Source: a virus
Taxonomy: Duplodnaviria > Heunggongvirae > Uroviricota > Caudoviricetes
Reading direction: 5' to 3' (one strand)
Length of the DNA stretch: 11,368 nucleotides
Virus record (IMG/VR): IMGVR_UViG_2547132269_000002
Location: 1-11,368 of that record
Below, piece by piece: positions 657-11,061 of this stretch. The translations under genes were made by a program, and so were the position numbers. Within the stretch, counting starts at the first letter, position 1. Each line of letters begins with the position of its first letter. Below the pieces are notes generated by a model. That model saw only the letters and a list, made by a program, of their open reading frames with translations. It did no database searches and was not told where the DNA came from.

Positions 657-1007
657 ATGCCACCACGAACCCCAAAAGCCTGCCGTTTTCGCGGTTGCCG
701 CAATACCACTACAGATACGTCAGGCTATTGCGAAAGCCACAAAAGCGAGGGCTGGAAGCAATACAAGCCAGGACAATCCCGTCATCAGCGCGGTTATGGT
801 TCGAAGTGGGACAGTATCCGCGCGGGTGTCCTGAAGCGTGACAAAGGCCTGTGTCAGTTATGTCTGCGTGCTGGTGTGGTGCGTGAGGCGAAAACCGTTG
901 ACCACATCATCCCTAAAGCGCATGGCGGCACTGATGCCGACTGTAATCTGCAGAGTCTGTGCTGGCCGTGTCATAAGGCGAAGACGGCCCGTGAACGACT
1001 TAAGTGA
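657..1007 (+). CDS. HNH homing-type endonuclease, phage packaging-associated (116 aa)
   Basis: ATG at 657 with AGAGGGG upstream. Cys pairs CRFRGC and CQLC...CWPC (zinc-finger-like). HNH core DHIIPKAHGG...NLQSLCWPCHKAKT with His83 codon at 903-905. Sits directly upstream of the small and large terminase genes, as in HK97-like cos phages. Confidence 0.9.
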   Translation: MPPRTPKACRFRGCRNTTTDTSGYCESHKSEGWKQYKPGQSRHQRGYGSKWDSIRAGVLKRDKGLCQLCLRAGVVREAKTVDHIIPKAHGGTDADCNLQSLCWPCHKAKTARERLK

Positions 1008-3368: not shown

Positions 3369-3551
3369 ATGATCATGCTGATTCTCGCGCCTTTGGTGGG
3401 CGTGCTGGGGGCGCTTTTGCTGGCGTATGGTGCCTGGCTGATTTATCCCCCGGCGGGGTTTGTTGTTGCTGGGGCGTTGTGCCTGTTCTGGTCGTGGCTG
3501 GTGGCGCGATATCTCGACCGTACACAGTCGTCTGTCGGCGGAGGTAAATAG
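3369..3551 (+). CDS. Small hydrophobic protein (60 aa) with two predicted transmembrane helices, function unknown
   Basis: ATG at 3369 with GAGG 7 nt upstream. Two hydrophobic stretches ([26 protein letters not shown] and [16 protein letters not shown]) separated by PPAG. TAG stop at 3549-3551 overlaps the GTG start of the next ORF. Confidence 0.6.
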
Positions 3552-4909
3552 TGTTCTTTTCGGGATTATTTCAACGAAAAAGTGACGCACCGGTGACCAC
3601 GCCAGCAGAGCTGGCGGATGCTATCGGGTTGTCCTACGACACCTATACCGGAAAGCAGATCAGCAGCCAGCGGGCCATGCGACTGACGGCGGTTTTTTCC
3701 TGTGTCAGGGTGCTGGCGGAGTCGGTCGGGATGTTGCCCTGCAACCTGTATCACCTGAACGGCAGCCTGAAGCAGAGAGCCACTGGCGAACGTCTGCATA
3801 AGCTGATCTCCACGCATCCCAATGGCTATATGACGCCGCAGGAGTTCTGGGAGCTGGTGGTCACCTGTCTGTGCCTGCGGGGAAACTTTTACGCCTACAT
3901 TGAGCTGAAACGTCCGGCAGGTGGTGCGCAAAATAAACTGGCCACCGAGCATAAAGAAGCGTTTGTGGGCTTCCTGCGTAAAGGCCGTGAAGATGGTCTG
4001 CGCGATCTGGAGCGCAAGGCATTACAGGTGGGCACCGATGAAGACGGTGGCTATGCCGTGCCGGAAGCGCTGGATCGCAACATTCTGACCTTGCTGAAAG
4101 ATGAAGTGGTGATGCGCCAGGAAGCCGCGGTGATCACCGTTGGCGGTTCCGACTACAAAAAACTGGTGAATCTGGGCGGCACGGCTTCCGGATGGGGTGG
4201 CGAGACTGACGCGCGCTCCCAGACTGCCACCTCCAGACTGGGGCTGATTGAACCTTTCATGGGGGAAATCTACGGTAACCCGCAGGCCACCCAGAAAATG
4301 CTGGATGATGCCTTTTTCAACGTGGAGGCCTGGATCAACAGCGAGCTGGCAACCGAATTTGCCGAACAGGAAGAAATTGCCTTTACCACCGGCGATGGTA
4401 CCAAGAAGCCGAAAGGGTTCCTGGCGTATGAATCCACTGATGAAACCGATAAGGTCCGGGCGTTCGGCAAACTTCAGCATATTGTATCCGGCGACGCGAC
4501 TGCGGTGACCGCAGACGCCATTATCAAACTGATTTACACGCTGCGAAAGGCACACCGCACCGGCGCGAAGTTCATGATGAACAACAACAGCCTGTTTGCC
4601 ATCCGTTTGCTGAAAGACAGCGAGGGTAACTATCTGTGGCGTCCGGGGCTGGAACTGGGGCAGCCGTCCTCTCTGGCGGGTTACGGTATCGCTGAAAACG
4701 AACAGATGCCGGATATCGCCGCTGATGCGAAAGCCATTGCATTTGGTAACTTCAAACGGGGTTACACCATCGTTGACCGTATCGGCACCCGCATTCTGCG
4801 TGACCCGTACACCAATAAACCGTTTGTCGGTTTTTATACAACCAAGCGCACCGGCGGGATGCTGGTCGATTCGCAGGCCATCAAACTGCTGAAGATTGCT
4901 GCGGCGTAA
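3551..4909 (+). CDS. Chimeric ORF: portal protein N-terminal fragment (~125 aa) fused in frame to an HK97-fold major capsid protein (~325 aa); probable deletion product
   Basis: GTG start at 3551 with GGAGG at 3540-3544. Residues ~40-120 carry the portal N-terminal signature (AMRLTAVFSCVRVLAESVGMLP ... HPNGYMTPQEFWEL ... LRGNFYAYIE). From about nt 3910-3950 the sequence switches to capsid-type motifs (EAFVGFLRKG, GGYAVPE, TGDGTKKPKGFL, LRDPYTNKPFVGFYTTKRTGG, AIKLLKIAAA). No prohead protease or scaffold gene between them. Confidence 0.8.
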   Translation: MFFSGLFQRKSDAPVTTPAELADAIGLSYDTYTGKQISSQRAMRLTAVFSCVRVLAESVGMLPCNLYHLNGSLKQRATGERLHKLISTHPNGYMTPQEFWELVVTCLCLRGNFYAYIELKRPAGGAQNKLATEHKEAFVGFLRKGREDGLRDLERKALQVGTDEDGGYAVPEALDRNILTLLKDEVVMRQEAAVITVGGSDYKKLVNLGGTASGWGGETDARSQTATSRLGLIEPFMGEIYGNPQATQKMLDDAFFNVEAWINSELATEFAEQEEIAFTTGDGTKKPKGFLAYESTDETDKVRAFGKLQHIVSGDATAVTADAIIKLIYTLRKAHRTGAKFMMNNNSLFAIRLLKDSEGNYLWRPGLELGQPSSLAGYGIAENEQMPDIAADAKAIAFGNFKRGYTIVDRIGTRILRDPYTNKPFVGFYTTKRTGGMLVDSQAIKLLKIAAA

Positions 4910-5161: not shown

Positions 5162-5485
5162 ATGCTTCTGACAATGGAAGAGATTAAAGCCCAACTCCGG
5201 CTGGATGAGGATTTCGATGCTGATGACCGCCATCTGCAACTGCTGGCCTGTGCGGCGCAAAAGCGGACGGAAACGTATCTGAACCGGAAGCTCTATGCAC
5301 CGGATGAATCCATTCCGGACAGCGATCCGGACGGGCTGCACCTGCCGGATGATATTCGTCTGGGGATGCTGATGCTTATCAGCCATTTTTACGAAAACCG
5401 CTCGTCGGTTACGGAAGTGGAAAAACTCGACATGCCGCAGAGTTTTGGCTGGCTTGTCGGCCCGTACAGGTACTTTCCGCAATGA
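5162..5485 (+). CDS. Head-tail connector protein, gp6-like (107 aa)
   Basis: ATG at 5162 with AAGAGGG upstream. N-terminal pattern LTMEEIKAQLRLDEDFDADD...LQLLACAA resembles gp6-like connector/DNA-packaging proteins. Follows the capsid gene. ATGA overlap with the next gene. Confidence 0.75.
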   Translation: MLLTMEEIKAQLRLDEDFDADDRHLQLLACAAQKRTETYLNRKLYAPDESIPDSDPDGLHLPDDIRLGMLMLISHFYENRSSVTEVEKLDMPQSFGWLVGPYRYFPQ

Positions 5486-5892
5486 AAATTCGTCAGGCGC
5501 AGATCAGCGCAACCTACATTCTGCCGGACCCCGGTGAACTGAATAAACGCGTCCTGATCCGCCTGCGGGTGGATATGCCCGCGGATAACTTTGGCGTGGA
5601 GCCTCAATACCCGGTTACGTTCTGGACATGGGCGAAGGTTATCCAGACCAGTGCCACCACCTGGCAGGAAACCGCGCAGACCGGGGACGCCATCACCCAT
5701 TACATCACCATTCGTTACCGCCGGGGGATCACCGCTGATTATGAGGTGGTCTGTGATGACAGTGTGTACCGGGTGAAACGTCAGCGCGATCTGAACGGGG
5801 CGCGGCGCTTTCTGCTGCTGGAGTGTACGGAGCTGGGCGAATTTACGCAGAGTCACGGAGGCAGCAATGGCGACTCCCTTTTTTCACGTTGA
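5482..5892 (+). CDS. Head-tail joining (head closure / adaptor) protein (136 aa)
   Basis: Pattern RVLIRLRV ... FWTWAKVIQ ... AQTGDAITHYITIRYRRGI ... YRV ... LLECTE fits the phage head-tail joining family. Position after the gp6-like gene. Confidence 0.75.
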   Translation: MKIRQAQISATYILPDPGELNKRVLIRLRVDMPADNFGVEPQYPVTFWTWAKVIQTSATTWQETAQTGDAITHYITIRYRRGITADYEVVCDDSVYRVKRQRDLNGARRFLLLECTELGEFTQSHGGSNGDSLFSR

Positions 5893-6373
5893 TGTTCAGC
5901 AGCCCGCGGAGATGCGCTTTAACCGCGCCCGTGTCCGGCGGGCGTTTGTCACGATTGGTCAGCGTCATATGCGTGATGCCCGTCGGCTGGTGATGCGCCG
6001 TGCGCGGTCGGCACCGGGTGAAAACCCCGGTTATCAGACCGGACGCTTGGCTCGTTCGATTGGTTACATGGTGCCGGGAGCCAGTAAAAAGCGAGTCGGT
6101 TTTATGACACGCATTGCCCCTAACCAGCGCAACGGGAGGGGGAACCGGATGATCTCTGGTGACTTCTATCCGGCGTTTCTGTTTTTTGGTGTCCGGGGAG
6201 GAGCAAAACGTCGTCACAGTCATCATCGTGGTGCATCCGGTGGCAGCGGCTGGCGACTGGCTCCACGTAATAACTTCATGGTGGAAACGCTTGAAAAGAA
6301 CCGCAGCTGGACACGCTATTTTCTGGCGCGGGAATTACGTAAATCACTGAAGCCGGAGCGACGACGCAGATGA
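5867..6373 (+). CDS. Neck / tail-completion protein, HK97 gp10-like by pattern (168 aa), Arg-rich C-terminus
   Basis: ATG at 5867 with GGAGG at 5857-5861; overlaps the previous gene by 26 nt. Assignment rests on gene order and loose motif resemblance (GYQTGRLARSI, FYPAFLFFG). Confidence 0.5.
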   Translation: MATPFFHVDVQQPAEMRFNRARVRRAFVTIGQRHMRDARRLVMRRARSAPGENPGYQTGRLARSIGYMVPGASKKRVGFMTRIAPNQRNGRGNRMISGDFYPAFLFFGVRGGAKRRHSHHRGASGGSGWRLAPRNNFMVETLEKNRSWTRYFLARELRKSLKPERRRR

Positions 6374-6930
6374 AACTGACGCCTGTTATTGCTGCGCTGC
6401 GTGCCCGCTGCCCGTATTTTGAAAACCGGGTGGCAGGTGCGGCACAGTTCAAAAATCTGCCGGAGGTCGGAAAGCTGAAACTCCCGGCGGCGTATGTGGT
6501 ACCGGGTGATGACTCTCCTGGAGAAAACAAAAGCCAGACCGACTACTGGCAGGAGCTGAAAGAGGGCTTCTCCGTGGTTGTCATACTGAGTAACGGGCGT
6601 GATGAGCGCGGTCAGTTTGCCTCGTATGATGTGGTGGACGATGTCCGGCAGATGCTCTTTAAGGCCCTGCTGAGCTGGAACCCGGAAGCGTGCGGTAACC
6701 CGATTACCTATGACGGCGGCACGCTGCTGGATCTGAATCGTCATGAGCTGATTTATCAGTTCGATTTTTCGGTCATCAGCGAGCTGACCGAAGACGATAC
6801 CCGCCAGCAGGATGATCTGAACAGTCTGGATGAACTGCAAACGCTGGCGATTGATGTTGATTATCTCGAGCCCGGTAACGGGCCTGACGGCGATATCGAA
6901 CATCACACCGAAATAACCCTTCCTTCCTGA
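6370..6930 (+). CDS. Mu gp36/gp37-like tail-associated protein (186 aa) with acidic C-terminal region
   Basis: ATGA overlap with the upstream gene. Lies just upstream of the gp38-like gene and the tail sheath start, as in Mu-like tail modules. Family assignment is by position and loose resemblance. Confidence 0.5.
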   Translation: MKLTPVIAALRARCPYFENRVAGAAQFKNLPEVGKLKLPAAYVVPGDDSPGENKSQTDYWQELKEGFSVVVILSNGRDERGQFASYDVVDDVRQMLFKALLSWNPEACGNPITYDGGTLLDLNRHELIYQFDFSVISELTEDDTRQQDDLNSLDELQTLAIDVDYLEPGNGPDGDIEHHTEITLPS

Positions 6931-6938
6931 GGATCCTC

Positions 6939-7109
6939 ATGTTTGTCAAACCTGTTAAAGGGCGGTCAGTGCCTGACCCTGCCCGCGGCGACCTTTTGCC
7001 CGCCGAAGGGCGAAATGTTGACGAGAACAACTACTGGCTGCGCCGTGAAGCAGCGGGTGATATCCGGCGCGTGAATAAAAAGGTGAACACCGATGACGAT
7101 AAGCTTTAA
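6939..7109 (+). CDS. Small Mu gp38-like protein (56 aa, DUF2635-like)
   Basis: Not in the ORF track (below length cutoff); found by reading the sequence. ATG at 6939 with GAGGA at 6929-6933; TAA stop at 7107-7109. Protein MFVKPVKGRSVPDPARGDLLPAEGRNVDENNYWLRREAAGDIRRVNKKVNTDDDKL. Lies directly upstream of the sheath start codon. Confidence 0.55.
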   Translation: MFVKPVKGRSVPDPARGDLLPAEGRNVDENNYWLRREAAGDIRRVNKKVNTDDDKL

Positions 7110-7224
7110 CACCATTCCGTCGAATACGCTGGTTCCGTTGTTTTATGCGGAAATGGATAACCAGGCGGCGAATAAACACCCGCGCAGAGCACTGGCTGGC
7201 CTTCCGTCACGCATCCGGCACTGA
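7093..7224 (+). pseudogene. Tail sheath gene, N-terminal fragment only (43 codons, ~27 sheath-like then out-of-context tail)
   Basis: ATG at 7093 with AAGGTG upstream. Translation MTISFNTIPSNTLVPLFYAEMDN matches the conserved N-terminus of Mu-type sheath proteins, but a TGA stop follows at 7222-7224. The ~450-aa sheath body is absent. Confidence 0.6.
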
Positions 7225-7574
7225 ACAATGCACCGGCGGTGAAAAGCACGGTTGACCTGCCAACGTGGGAAGAACTGACTGACATTCGCGACACACTGAA
7301 TACGGCAATTGATAAGGAGTTGTCCCGTACAACCAGTGATGCGCTGTTTCTGGCGCTGCGCCGGGTGAAAGCAGATCTGAATGCGGATATCAACACGCGC
7401 CTTGAACAGTCTGCACGGATCATTCAGCGCACGCCGGATGAGGTTTTACCCGCGCTGGTGCTGGCGGCGACCTGGTTTGATAACGCGGCGCGTGACGGGG
7501 ACATTATCCGGCGTAATGCCATTACGCATCCCGGCTTTGTGCCGGTGATCCCTCTGAAGGTGCCAGTGCAATGA
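7176..7574 (+). pseudogene. 3' remnant of the gene upstream of the baseplate hub (probably Mu gp43/N-like DNA circularisation protein); no ATG start or RBS
   Basis: Frame opens after the TAA at 7173-7175 and runs to the TGA at 7572-7574, which overlaps the ATG of the hub gene (caATGAac). First possible start is a GTG at 7239 with no RBS. 133 open codons against an expected ~400-500 aa for this gene. Confidence 0.5.
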
Positions 7575-8650
7575 ACGATAACGTCACGCTACGGGTAAAT
7601 GGCCGGGAGTGGAATGGCTGGACATCGGTGCGCATCGGTGCCGGTGTTGAACGACTGGCGCGGGATTTCAGTGTGGAGATCACTCGCCAGTGGCCGGGAG
7701 ATGAGGGTATCACCACGCTTCAGCCGCGCATTAAAAACGGTTCAAAAGTGGAAGTGCTGATTGGTGATGAGCTGGTGATCACCGGCTGGGTGGAGGCGAC
7801 TCCCGTTCGTTACGATGCCCGTTCGGTCAGCACCGGTATTGCCGGACGTAGTCTGACGGCTGACCTGATTGACTGTGCAGCCGAACCGACACAGTTTAAC
7901 GGACGCTCGCTGGTGCAGATTGCGCAGGCGCTTGCTGCGCCTTTCGGCATTGAGGTGGTGAACAGCGGTGCGCCGTCGGGTGTTATTCCTGATGTTCAGC
8001 CTGATCACGGTGAAACGGTGATTGAGGTAATCAACAAAATACTCGGTCAGCAGCAGGCGCTGGCTTACGACGACCCGTACGGCAGGCTGGTGATTGGCGG
8101 TATTGGCTCAACGCGGGCACATACCGCGCTGGTACTTGGGGAAAACATCCTTTCCTGTGATACGGAGAAGAGTATCCGGGAGCGGTTTTCTGTTTACCAG
8201 GTGGCGGGGCAGCGTGCCGGAAACGACGATGATTTCGGTGAGGCCACCACCACCGCGCTGCGGGCCCGCACAGAGGACGCATTTATTGCCCGTTACCGTC
8301 CGATGTATATCAGGCAGACAGGGCAGCCCACGGGGGCAGGCTGTATTGCGCGTGCTGACTTTGAAGCCCGACAACGGGCGGCGCGGACGGATGAAACCAC
8401 CTATGTGGTGCAGGGCTGGCGACAGGGTAACGGTACGCTGTGGCAGCCCAACCAGCGGGTGATTGTCTTCGATCCGGTCTGTGGTTTCGACAATACCGAA
8501 CTGCTTGTCTCGGAAGTCACGTTTACTCAGGACCAGAACGGCACCCTGACGGAAATCCGTGTCGGCCCGCCTGATGCTTATCTGCCTGAACCCGAAGCCC
8601 CCGGCGCGCGGGAAAAGAAAAAAGCCAGAGTACAGGAGGACCCGTTCTGA
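7571..8650 (+). CDS. Baseplate hub protein, Mu gpP (gp44)-like (359 aa)
   Basis: ATG at 7571 overlapping the upstream stop. Size and position match; N-terminal pattern LRVNGREWNGWTSVRIGAGVERLARDFSVEIT. Followed by the gp45-like and gp46-like genes in canonical order. Confidence 0.8.
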   Translation: MNDNVTLRVNGREWNGWTSVRIGAGVERLARDFSVEITRQWPGDEGITTLQPRIKNGSKVEVLIGDELVITGWVEATPVRYDARSVSTGIAGRSLTADLIDCAAEPTQFNGRSLVQIAQALAAPFGIEVVNSGAPSGVIPDVQPDHGETVIEVINKILGQQQALAYDDPYGRLVIGGIGSTRAHTALVLGENILSCDTEKSIRERFSVYQVAGQRAGNDDDFGEATTTALRARTEDAFIARYRPMYIRQTGQPTGAGCIARADFEARQRAARTDETTYVVQGWRQGNGTLWQPNQRVIVFDPVCGFDNTELLVSEVTFTQDQNGTLTEIRVGPPDAYLPEPEAPGAREKKKARVQEDPF

Positions 8651-9198
8651 TGAGGACGATTGAAGCCATGCAGCGACAACTTCTCGGCCTGATTGGGCGG
8701 GCAGTGGTGAAAAGCATCAGTGCCGCCACGAAATGTCAGACCGTGGATGTGTCCCTGATTGCCGGTGAATCCAAAGCCGGGGTTGAACATCTTGAACCCT
8801 ACGGTTTTACCGCAAGGGCAAACAGCGGTGCGGAAGCGGTGGTGTTGTTTCCGGATGGCGACCGTTCTCATGCGGTGGTTGTTACGGTGTCGGACCGGCG
8901 CTACCGCCTGAAAGGGCTGCAGACGGGTGAGGTGGCTGTCTATGACGATCAGGGGCAGTCCGTGACGCTGACCCGGGAGGGGATCGTGGTGGACGGTGCA
9001 GGTAAAACGATCACGTTTCACAATGCGCCTAAGGCACGTTTTGAAATGGACCTGGAGGTGACCGGACAGGTGAAAGACCTGTGCGACTCCGGCGGCACCG
9101 CCATGTCAGCGATGCGGCTTGCCTATAACGGGCATCGTCACAGAGAGAACGGTCAGGGCAGTAACACCGACAAACCTGATAAAGCGATGGAGGCATGA
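8650..9198 (+). CDS. Baseplate spike / assembly protein V, Mu gp45-like (182 aa)
   Basis: TGATG overlap with the hub gene. Pattern GLIGRAVV ... GESKAGVEHLEPYGFTA ... GEVAVYDDQGQSVTL typical of gpV-like spike proteins. Canonical position. Confidence 0.8.
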   Translation: MRTIEAMQRQLLGLIGRAVVKSISAATKCQTVDVSLIAGESKAGVEHLEPYGFTARANSGAEAVVLFPDGDRSHAVVVTVSDRRYRLKGLQTGEVAVYDDQGQSVTLTREGIVVDGAGKTITFHNAPKARFEMDLEVTGQVKDLCDSGGTAMSAMRLAYNGHRHRENGQGSNTDKPDKAMEA

Positions 9199-9623
9199 TG
9201 GAAGTGTGGCTGACGGTGAACGGTAAATGCACCTGCGCCAGCGCACCGCTGGATCCGCTGACCCGCGCCGTGGTGATTTCTCTGTTTACCTGGCGGCGGG
9301 CGGAGCCTGATGACAATGCCGACGTCCCGATGGGATGGTGGGGGGATACCTGGCCTGCGGTACAGAATGACCGTTACGGTTCCCGACTGTGGCTGCTTCA
9401 ACGCAGCAAACTGACCAATCAACTGGTGCAGACGGTAAGGGGGTATATCCGCGAATGCCTGCAATGGATGATTGATGACGGCGTGGTGTCCCGTATTGAT
9501 CTGGATATCCGCCGCACCGGGATTAATGAACTGGGTAACAGTATCACTCTCTGGCGTCGTGACGGACCGGTAATGATTTCTTTTGATGATCTGTGGAGTG
9601 CGATAACGCATGGCGGACAGTGA
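9195..9623 (+). CDS. Mu gp46-like baseplate protein (142 aa)
   Basis: ATGA overlap with the gp45-like gene. Size and position between the spike and J-like genes. Confidence 0.75.
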
Positions 9624-11061
9624 ATTTCAGCGCCCGACGCTGGCAGAAAATATCAGTATGCTCCGTAACGATTTATTCGCCAGGCTGGACGTCAGCGACA
9701 CGCTCCGGCGCATGGATGAAGACGTGCGGGCAAAGGTGTATGCGGCGGCGCTGCATACGGTTTACGGGTACATCGATTATCTGGCAATGAACATGCTGCC
9801 TGACCTGTGCGATGAGTCCTGGCTGGCGCGACATGCTGCGATGAAACGGTGTCCGCGCAAGGGGGCCACGGCTGCCAGCGGGTATATGCGCTGGGAAGGT
9901 GTCAGCGATGGCCTGAAGGTGACCGCCGGGAGTGTTATTCAGCGCGATGACCTGGTTCAGTACACGGCAACTGCCGATGCAACCAGCTCCGGTGGTGTCC
10001 TGCGCGTGCCGATCGCCTGCTCAAGTGCAGGCGCGGTCGGTAACGCTGACGACGGTACGTCATTAATCCTGGTCACGCCGGTTAATGGTCTGCCGTCTTC
10101 CGGCGTGGCAGATACCCTGACAGGTGGATTTGATACTGAAGAGCTGGAAACGTGGCGCGCCCGCGTCATTGAGCGGTATTACTGGACGCCTCAGGGCGGA
10201 GCTGACGGGGACTATGTCGTCTGGGCTAAAGAAGTGCCCGGCATTACCCGCGCATGGACATACCGTCACTGGATGGGAACGGGAACTGTCGGTGTGATGA
10301 TTGCCAGCAGTGACCTGATTAATCCCATTCCGGAAGAATCAACGGAAACGGCAGCAAGACAACATATCGGGCCACTGGCCCCGGTGGCAGGCTCTGATTT
10401 GTATGTGTTCAGGCCGGTGGCGCATAAAGTGGATTTTCATATCCGCGTGACGCCGGACACACCGGAAATACGGGCTGCCATTACCGCGGAGTTGCGTTCG
10501 TTCCTGCTGCGTGATGGTTATCCGCAGGGAGAACTGAAGGTATCGCGTATCAGTGAGGCGATTTCCGGTGCGGCACCGTCATTAACCCGTGTTCATCAGC
10601 GTGCGGATGCCCTGATGCGGGAGCTGGATCCGCGCACCACCACTGAACTGATAAACCGCTGGGAGCGTCTGTGCGGTCTGCCGGATGAATGTATTCCGGC
10701 GGGAACGCAGACCCTTCGCCAGCGTCAGCAACGGCTGGATGCGAAGGTTAACCTGGCGGGCGGCATCAACGAGGATTTTTATCTTGCACAGCTTGCTGCC
10801 CTGGGCAGACCAGATGCCACCATCACGCGATACGACAAAAGCACGTTCACCTGCTCATCGGCCTGTACTGACGCGGTGAATGCGCCAGAATGGCGGTATT
10901 GCTGGCAGGTCAACATGCCAACCACCACCAACACCACCTGGATGACATGTGGCGATCCCTGTGATTCCGCACTGCGTATCTGGGGTGACACCGTTGTCGA
11001 GTGTGTGCTTAACAAACTCTGCCCGTCGCATACCTACGTAATTTTTAAATATCCGGAGTAA
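9610..11061 (+). CDS. Baseplate J-like protein (Mu gp47-like, ~320 aa) continuous with a gp48 / P2 gpI-like tail protein domain (~160 aa) in one 483-aa ORF
   Basis: ATG at 9610; single uninterrupted frame to TAA at 11059-11061. The N-terminal ~320 aa look J-like. From about nt 10560-10620 ([24 protein letters not shown] ...) the sequence resembles the N-terminal region of gp48/DUF2313-type proteins, which are normally a separate downstream gene. Confidence 0.75.

What the first reader, a model, noticed from the sequence alone, without database searches (positions are those of the whole stretch)
7093..7574. Collapsed tail module: sheath start codon region joined to the tail end of the pre-baseplate gene
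A sheath-like N-terminus (MTISFNTIPSNTLVPLFYAEMDN) terminates after 43 codons. A different frame then opens at 7176 with no ATG or RBS and runs 133 codons to an ATGA overlap with the baseplate hub gene. In Mu-like tails the genes between sheath start and hub are sheath, tube, chaperones, tape measure and the gp43/N-like protein, about 5 kb in total. Here the two ends sit ~100 nt apart, so the junction lies near 7160-7240. The element cannot build a contractile tail, yet the baseplate and fiber genes downstream remain intact and coupled.
Basis: partly seen in the sequence, partly recalled or inferred. Interest (0 to 1): 0.55.

Follow-up and report, generated by a model that had tools for sequence, protein, structure and literature searches.

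The report
Prophage tail genes lost by deletion
A defective SfV/e14-type prophage of Escherichia albertii has lost a 5,006-base block holding its tail sheath, tube, chaperone, tape-measure and most of its Mu-N-like gene; this is ordinary prophage decay.

Summary
The window is colinear at 95-99% identity with phage SfV and an intact e14-like E. coli prophage. The exception is a clean break at 7174|7175, where 5,006 bp of the intact phages are missing. The left side keeps 27 codons plus 1 nt of the sheath gene. The right side keeps the last 132 codons plus stop of the Mu-N-like 'DNA circularization' gene. The join is out of frame. It creates a 43-aa chimeric ORF and a TAA stop in the N frame, and it has no direct repeat or microhomology.

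The junction is real. It also occurs in the finished chromosome of E. albertii 2013C-4143 and in three further independent assemblies.

One is a 1,731-bp in-frame portal-capsid fusion (3899|3900). The other is a 182-bp in-frame J/gp48 fusion at a 16-bp repeat (10557-10572). So the downstream baseplate is not fully intact.

The 111-aa ORF is not a stand-alone gene in any relative examined. In 2013C-4143 an IS3-family element also cuts the prophage's left arm. Substitutions among carriers suggest relaxed constraint. Verdict: a multi-lesion cryptic prophage, like e14 of E. coli K-12; low interest.

The parts
6939..7109 (+). Intact DUF2635 (Mu gp38-like) gene; its 3' end overlaps the sheath start codon, as in intact relatives
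   Evidence: Pfam PF10948, E=9.8e-17; same 56-aa gene lies upstream of the sheath gene in SfV and ECONIH5
7093..7174 (+). Remnant of the tail sheath gene: start codon, 27 codons and 1 nt
   Evidence: 27/27 aa identical to the SfV sheath N-terminus; nucleotide colinearity with L001/L002 ends at 7174
7174..7175 (.). Deletion junction: 5,006 bp of the intact phage are missing; blunt join with 0 nt of microhomology
   Evidence: BLAST blocks window 5369-7174 = SfV 5787-7592 and 7175-10572 = SfV 12599-15996; same break against L002 at 6994|12001; forward and backward identity 0, longest shared word within +-30 nt is 5-6 nt
7093..7224 (+). 43-aa chimeric ORF: 27 sheath residues plus 16 residues read out of frame from the N-like gene, then TGA
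   Evidence: no Pfam hit; the exact 43-aa product is called in E. albertii CP030787.2 and three Logan assemblies
7175..7574 (+). 3' 400 nt of the Mu-N-like 'DNA circularization' gene (residues 316-447 of SfV Orf15), lacking start codon, RBS and the PF07157 N-terminal domain
   Evidence: 130/132 aa identity; PF07157 is found in full-length SfV Orf15 at residues 12-98 but not in the fragment
7239..7574 (+). 111-aa GTG ORF that gene callers report inside the N fragment; a by-product of truncation, not a gene of its own
   Evidence: the traced 111-aa calls elsewhere follow an N reading frame, and in L020 an 8-bp frameshift deletion is shown
7571..8650 (+). Full-length baseplate hub gene (Mu gpP/gp44-like); its start overlaps the N stop as ATGA
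   Evidence: Pfam GpP-like_1st, Gp44-like_2nd, GpP_4th; 359 aa as called in intact-N relatives (L020, L022) and 1,080 nt as in SfV
3899..3900 (.). Second lesion of the same element: 1,731-bp blunt deletion fusing portal residues 1-116 in frame to capsid residues 67-401 (ORF 3551..4909, 452 aa); the protease gene is lost
   Evidence: absent from CP030787.2 and SRR8355577, which keep portal, protease and capsid
10557..10572 (.). Third lesion: 182-bp deletion at a 15/16 direct repeat, fusing J/gp47 (1-321) in frame to YmfQ/gp48 (33-194) (ORF 9610..11061, 483 aa)

Best explanation
Region 7093-7574 is the scar of a single 5,006-bp internal deletion in an SfV/SfI/e14-family prophage. This family combines a lambdoid early region, an HK97-type head and a Mu-like contractile tail. 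The prophage sits in a small lineage of Escherichia albertii. The deletion removed sheath codons 28-498, the tube gene, the tail assembly gene, the tape-measure gene and about the first 315 codons of the Mu-N-like gene. It joined the two ends out of frame. Because the ends share no homology, the event was most likely illegitimate, homology-independent recombination or end-joining (inferred). As a consequence the element cannot make a tail tube, sheath or tape measure. Ribosomes coming from the DUF2635 gene would make only a 43-aa nonsense peptide. The N remnant has no start signal (inferred from sequence). The scar is one of several independent lesions: a portal-capsid fusion, a J-gp48 fusion and, in the finished genome, an IS3-family insertion that cuts off the left arm. 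The element is therefore a decaying cryptic prophage, inherited vertically with its junction unchanged.
For: The window is colinear with SfV and ECONIH5 at 94.6-99.2% identity apart from the break at 7174|7175; 5,006 bp are missing relative to both. The annotation of the missing interval is sheath, tube, tail assembly, tape measure and DNA circularization. Protein identities are 27/27 for the sheath remnant and 130/132 for the N remnant. The remnants lack the Pfam domains seen in the full-length proteins. The identical junction (exact 43-aa ORF) is present in E. albertii 2013C-4143 chromosome CP030787.2 and in Logan assemblies of SRR8355577, SRR3574322 and ERR200287, at 99.8-99.9% identity to the window. 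Additional lesions are documented. Nonsynonymous:synonymous changes are 14:11 among deletion carriers against 50:121 between the window and intact phages (Fisher p=0.011). There is no microhomology at the junction.
Against: All other ORFs in the window are still full length, so decay is not advanced. The substitution sample among carriers is small (25 sites). I could not check whether the deleted 5 kb survives elsewhere in the same genome. The mechanism of deletion is inferred only from the absence of homology in two reference phages, not from the true parent sequence.
Confidence: 0.93

Rival explanations
1. The junction is an assembly artefact: a mis-join in a short-read contig.
For: The window is a whole 11,368-bp short-read contig (Logan ERR200287_311). 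The junction 40-mer is absent from the one-genome-per-species collection and a degenerate 28-mer is absent from JGI metagenome contigs. No complete E. coli genome out of 5,426 spans it.
Against: The identical junction is present in a finished 4.66-Mb chromosome (CP030787.2) and in two other independent sequencing runs. Mis-joins normally occur at repeats, and there is none here.
Confidence: 0.01
2. The truncated module is retained because it does something. One option is that the 111-aa N C-terminal fragment is made by reinitiation at GTG 7239, 15 nt after the 43-aa ORF's stop. It could then act as a dominant-negative inhibitor of baseplate assembly in superinfecting SfV/e14-type phages. Another option is that the hub-to-fibre-Pin block serves as a recombination reservoir.
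For: The hub, gp45 and gp46 genes are full length and still overlap their neighbours. Two of the three deletions are in frame. The junction has persisted across several isolates.
Against: There is no RBS or promoter-like site near 7239. Two or more in-frame deletions out of three are expected by chance 26% of the time. The N:S ratio among carriers indicates relaxed constraint. gp47 and gp48 are themselves damaged. Many unrelated truncations and chimeras of the same gene exist in E. coli, which looks like random decay.
Confidence: 0.04
3. It is a natural mosaic boundary where a different tail type was swapped in, as seen in relatives that combine the same head with a siphovirus tail.
For: Locus L009 carries the same terminase, portal and capsid genes followed by a lambda-like tail module (tube, T, tape-measure families). 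Tail-module exchange therefore does occur in this family.
Against: No alternative tail genes lie at the junction. The sheath fragment abuts the N fragment directly and is followed by the Mu-type baseplate.
Confidence: 0.01

Closest known systems
Cryptic prophage e14 of E. coli K-12
   Same: Same phage family and the same class of lesion. Internal deletions abut fragments of distant morphogenesis genes: beeE (portal fragment) lies next to jayE (baseplate J fragment), and ymfN is a replication/terminase chimera. The ymfR, ymfQ, fibre and pin genes are retained. PMC3636060 describes the SfI/SfV/e14 relationship.
   Different: e14 of K-12 lost everything from portal to J in one collapse. The E. 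albertii element keeps most head-completion genes and the hub, gp45 and gp46 genes, and instead has three smaller deletions with different end points. Its flanking genes also differ from the icd-side flank of e14.
Shigella phages SfV, SfI, SfII and SfIV, and intact e14-like prophages of E. coli (e.g. ECONIH5)
   Same: 94.6-99.2% nucleotide identity and the same gene order over all retained segments.
   Different: Those elements carry the complete sheath, tube, assembly, tape-measure and N block (5,006 bp), separate portal, protease and capsid genes, and separate gp47 and gp48 genes.
Other truncated or chimeric N-gene remnants in E. coli prophages
   Same: The C-terminal part of the N-like gene is retained upstream of the hub gene after independent lesions. 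Examples are a collapse from the lysis region into N, 62 bp upstream of this breakpoint (L022), an 8-bp frameshift allele (L020), and products that Pfam marks as fusions to replication, DUF2570 or portal sequences.
   Different: They have different breakpoints and partners. None I examined has the sheath-N join.

Membership tests
SfV/SfI/e14-family prophage (lambdoid early genes, HK97-type head, Mu-like contractile tail) | High nucleotide identity and colinearity with SfV/e14-like morphogenesis regions | tested here: met
   94.6-99.2% identity over all retained blocks against SfV and ECONIH5; 12 phage records and 1,128 E. coli records match
SfV/SfI/e14-family prophage (lambdoid early genes, HK97-type head, Mu-like contractile tail) | Complete gene order: TerS, TerL, portal, protease, capsid ... 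DUF2635, sheath, tube, assembly, TMP, N, P, gp45, gp46, gp47, gp48, fibre | tested here: not met
   The order is preserved, but three intervals are deleted. It is a defective derivative, not a complete member.
Phage tail sheath protein (PF04984/PF17481/PF17482) | Presence of the sheath domains | tested here: not met
   Only residues 1-27 remain and there is no Pfam hit; full-length SfV sheath hits all three domains
Mu gpN-like DNA circularization / tail protein (PF07157 DNA_circ_N) | N-terminal DNA_circ_N domain and a full-length protein of ~445 aa | tested here: not met
   The fragment equals residues 316-447 only. PF07157 lies at residues 12-98 of SfV Orf15 and is absent here.
Cryptic (defective) prophage | Loss of genes essential for virion production | tested here: met
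   The sheath, tube, assembly and tape-measure genes and most of N are absent. In this window protease, most of portal and the capsid N-terminus are absent too.
Cryptic (defective) prophage | Multiple independent lesions and relaxed selection | tested here: met
   Three deletions, plus IS3-family truncation of the left arm and an IS1 beside pin in CP030787.2. N:S is 14:11 against 50:121, p=0.011, on a small sample.
Cryptic (defective) prophage | Failure to yield infective particles on induction | not testable with these tools
   Needs induction and electron microscopy or plaque assay
Tailocin / domesticated contractile-tail particle | Retained sheath, tube, tape-measure and baseplate genes without head genes | tested here: not met
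   The sheath, tube and tape-measure genes are exactly what is deleted; head-completion genes are retained

The most novel reading that the evidence does not exclude
The truncated tail module is not pure debris. The N C-terminal fragment (possibly made by reinitiation at GTG 7239) and the fused J-gp48 protein would be kept because they poison baseplate assembly of incoming SfV/e14-type phages. That would be superinfection interference by dominant-negative structural fragments. The same-point J-gp48 fusion in Shigella flexneri and E. coli would then reflect selection rather than a slippage hotspot.
Probability: 0.03. Interest if true: 0.5.

Novelty: new member of a known kind. Interest (0 to 1): 0.1.

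Why it matters
It matters little beyond annotation. The 43-aa and 111-aa ORFs called in E. albertii genomes should be annotated as pseudogene remnants of the sheath and N-like genes. The element should be scored as a defective prophage. The three nested junctions are convenient lineage markers: the sheath-N and J-gp48 deletions are shared by all four carriers, and the portal-capsid deletion is younger. They also give a small worked example of stepwise prophage decay, parallel to e14 of K-12.

Tried and rejected
- **Junction searches in public collections.** The exact 40-mer gave 0 hits in the one-genome-per-species collection. A degenerate 28-mer gave 0 hits in JGI metagenome contigs. These only show that the junction is rare.
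- **E. coli complete genomes.** None spans junction 2. For junction 1, only a different rearrangement in strain ChlosBP-23-1 turned up. For junction 3 the tool joins the two halves of intact genomes, so the summary could not discriminate; the top rows were all two-piece, that is, intact.
- **Direct repeats and microhomology at 7174|7175.** None was found in either reference.
- **RNA families and transcription signals.** Rfam gave no family over the whole window. The scan of 6800-7800 found no promoter- or terminator-like sites.
- **Look-up of the 47-contig 111-aa E. coli variant P0005.** The cluster representative P0003 was used instead.
- **Protein homology search with the N fragment.** It returned only short, partial or chimeric proteins and no full-length N proteins. 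Length conservation was therefore judged from the annotated intact phages.
- **Alternative readings.** The tailocin, module-swap and assembly-artefact readings were considered and rejected on gene content and independent assemblies.

Full report
**Observation.** ORF 7093..7224 encodes 43 residues, MTISFNTIPSNTLVPLFYAEMDNQAANKHPRRALAGLPSRIRH. A second frame is closed by a TAA at 7173-7175. It then runs open from 7176 through 132 sense codons to a TGA at 7572-7574. That TGA overlaps the ATG of the next gene (7571) as ATGA. The first in-frame start codon is the GTG at 7239. No Shine-Dalgarno-like sequence precedes it. No promoter- or terminator-like site lies in 6800-7800.

**What the two pieces are.**
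- The first 27 residues of the 43-aa ORF are 27/27 identical to the N-terminus of the 498-aa tail sheath of Shigella phage SfV. The other 16 residues come from reading the downstream gene out of frame.
- The 132-residue open frame is 130/132 identical to residues 316-447 of SfV Orf15, the Mu-N-like 'DNA circularization' or tail protein.
- Neither fragment retains a Pfam domain. Full-length SfV sheath hits three sheath domains, and full-length Orf15 hits DNA_circ_N at residues 12-98.

**The deleted interval.** A 2.4-kb query across the region matched 12 phage records and 1,128 E. coli records, always in two separate places, with the right-hand place starting at query position 876, which is window 7175. 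Pairwise BLAST gives these blocks:
- window 5369-7174 = SfV 5787-7592
- window 7175-10572 = SfV 12599-15996
- the same break against the intact e14-like prophage of E. coli ECONIH5, at L002 6994|12001

Both references therefore have 5,006 bp that the window lacks. That interval is annotated as sheath, tube, tail assembly protein, tape measure and the 5' three-quarters of the DNA circularization gene. The sheath gene keeps 82 nt and the N-like gene keeps 400 nt. Since 5,006 is not a multiple of three, the join is out of frame. The T-A of the sheath side plus the A of the N side create the TAA that closes the N frame.

**Junction anatomy.** Identity between the two parental breakpoints is 0 nt in both directions. 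The longest word shared within +-30 nt is 5-6 nt, offset from the breakpoints. I infer a homology-independent event, either illegitimate recombination or end-joining. This rests on two reference phages, not on the true parent.

**Is it real?** The window is identical to a whole 11,368-bp contig assembled from run ERR200287 (L006). The exact 43-aa junction ORF, and the same nucleotide junction, also occur in three other places:
- the finished 4,659,709-bp chromosome CP030787.2
- an assembly of SRR8355577
- an assembly of SRR3574322

All three are 99.8-99.9% identical to the window. CP030787.2 is Escherichia albertii strain 2013C-4143, a human isolate from 2013, ST7960 (PMC10673567). NCBI also names the window's 452-aa fusion protein as E. 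albertii. An assembly artefact is therefore excluded. The junction is rare: 0 of 5,426 complete E. coli genomes span it, and it is absent from the species-representative and JGI metagenome collections.

The same alignments reveal two further deletions.
- At 3899|3900, 1,731 bp are missing, again with a blunt join. Portal residues 1-116 are fused in frame to capsid residues 67-401, and the protease gene is lost. The product is the 452-aa ORF 3551..4909, which hits both Phage_portal and Phage_capsid. CP030787.2 and SRR8355577 still have separate portal, protease and capsid genes. This deletion is therefore younger than the sheath-N deletion.
- At 10557-10572, 182 bp are missing at a 15/16 direct repeat, GGCGATT(T/G)CCGGTGCG. 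J/gp47 residues 1-321 are fused in frame to YmfQ/gp48 residues 33-194. The product is the 483-aa ORF 9610..11061, which hits Baseplate_J and Phage_Mu_Gp48.

In the finished genome an IS3-family element also truncates the replication gene (271 aa against 313 aa). That element replaces the repressor/cro side of the prophage, and an IS1 sits beyond pin.

- In both intact references the sequence is the C-terminus of a 442-447 aa protein.
- A cluster of 111-aa calls does exist in E. coli and in metagenomes. In the two examples I could look up, the call directly follows an N reading frame. In the one I examined closely (L020), a full-length N gene carries an 8-bp frameshift deletion.
- A protein search with the fragment returned contig-end partials and chimeric products. 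Pfam marks some of these as fused to replication, DUF2570, portal or DNA_circ_N sequences.
- One independent E. coli collapse joins the lysis region to N, 62 bp upstream of this breakpoint.

Random truncation of this gene is thus common in the family.

**Selection.** Between the window and the intact phages, coding differences are 50 nonsynonymous to 121 synonymous, with a site ratio of 3.15, so pN/pS is about 0.13. Among the four deletion-carrying copies the union of variable sites is 14 nonsynonymous to 11 synonymous, giving about 0.40. Fisher's exact test gives p=0.011. The sample is small, but it points to relaxed constraint after inactivation.

**How it works (or fails to).** Shown: the element lacks the sheath, tube, assembly and tape-measure genes and most of the N-like gene. 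In this window it also lacks a functional portal, protease and capsid. Inferred: it cannot assemble a tail or a head. Ribosomes that terminate the DUF2635 gene and start at the overlapping sheath ATG would make only the 43-aa peptide. The N remnant would be untranslated unless ribosomes reinitiate at GTG 7239. The hub gene has its own GAAGGTG 9-15 nt upstream of its ATG and might still be translated if the late transcript is made.

**Comparison with what is known.** The element belongs to the SfV/SfI/e14 family, whose members have myovirus morphology and lambdoid early genes (PMC3636060). The closest precedent for the lesion is e14 of E. coli K-12. There the annotation places a portal fragment (beeE) next to a baseplate-J fragment (jayE), and a replication/terminase chimera (ymfN) precedes them. 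The E. albertii element is an independent, less reduced example of the same decay process. It is not a tailocin, because the contractile parts are exactly what is missing. It is not a tail-module swap either, although relatives with the same head and a siphovirus tail exist (L009). No Rfam family matched anywhere in the window.

**Verdict.** It is an ordinary internal deletion in a decaying prophage. The specific junction appears undescribed, but the kind is well known. Interest is low.

Noticed in passing
window 3551-4909 (junction 3899|3900): A 1,731-bp blunt deletion fuses portal residues 1-116 in frame to capsid residues 67-401 and removes the protease gene. It is present only in the window and SRR3574322 copies, so it is younger than the sheath-N deletion.
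   Followed up: yes
window 9610-11061 (junction within 10557-10572): A 182-bp deletion at a 15/16 direct repeat fuses baseplate J/gp47 in frame to YmfQ/gp48. 483-aa fusions of the same length, differing at 8-10 residues, are named in Shigella flexneri (e.g. VA-6) and E. coli. Either the event recurs at this repeat or the allele has spread.
   Followed up: partly
L020 800-815 (ENA metagenome scaffold), equivalent to window ~7196-7203: An 8-bp deletion (CTGGCCTT) frameshifts an otherwise full-length N-like gene and makes gene callers report the same 111-aa GTG ORF. This may explain some of the 102-member cluster of 111-aa 'DNA circularization' calls, many of whose other members are labelled partial.
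   Followed up: partly
L022 5214-6474 (Logan ERR12666628_163): An independent collapse in an E. coli relative: early and lysis-region genes abut the N-like gene 62 bp upstream of this window's right breakpoint, and terminase through tape measure are missing.
   Followed up: partly
L013 146-2160 and L003 15242-15936 (E. albertii CP030787.2): An IS3-family element truncates the prophage replication gene and replaces the immunity/integrase side. An IS1 lies just beyond the Pin invertase and a GIY-YIG nuclease gene. The finished-genome copy is a multi-lesion remnant.
   Followed up: partly
NZ_CP048603.1 1939338-1939985 (E. coli ChlosBP-23-1, hit H43): The portal 5' part and the capsid part matching the window's junction-1 flanks lie only ~650 bp apart. 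This suggests a different, independent portal-capsid collapse.
   Followed up: no
window 657-1007: An HNH endonuclease gene lies directly upstream of the small and large terminase genes, the usual HNH-terminase arrangement of cos-packaging HK97-like phages. It is intact here.
   Followed up: no
L009 16425-20225: A relative has the same terminase, portal, protease and capsid genes followed by a lambda-like non-contractile tail module. Head and tail modules are exchanged within this phage group.
   Followed up: no
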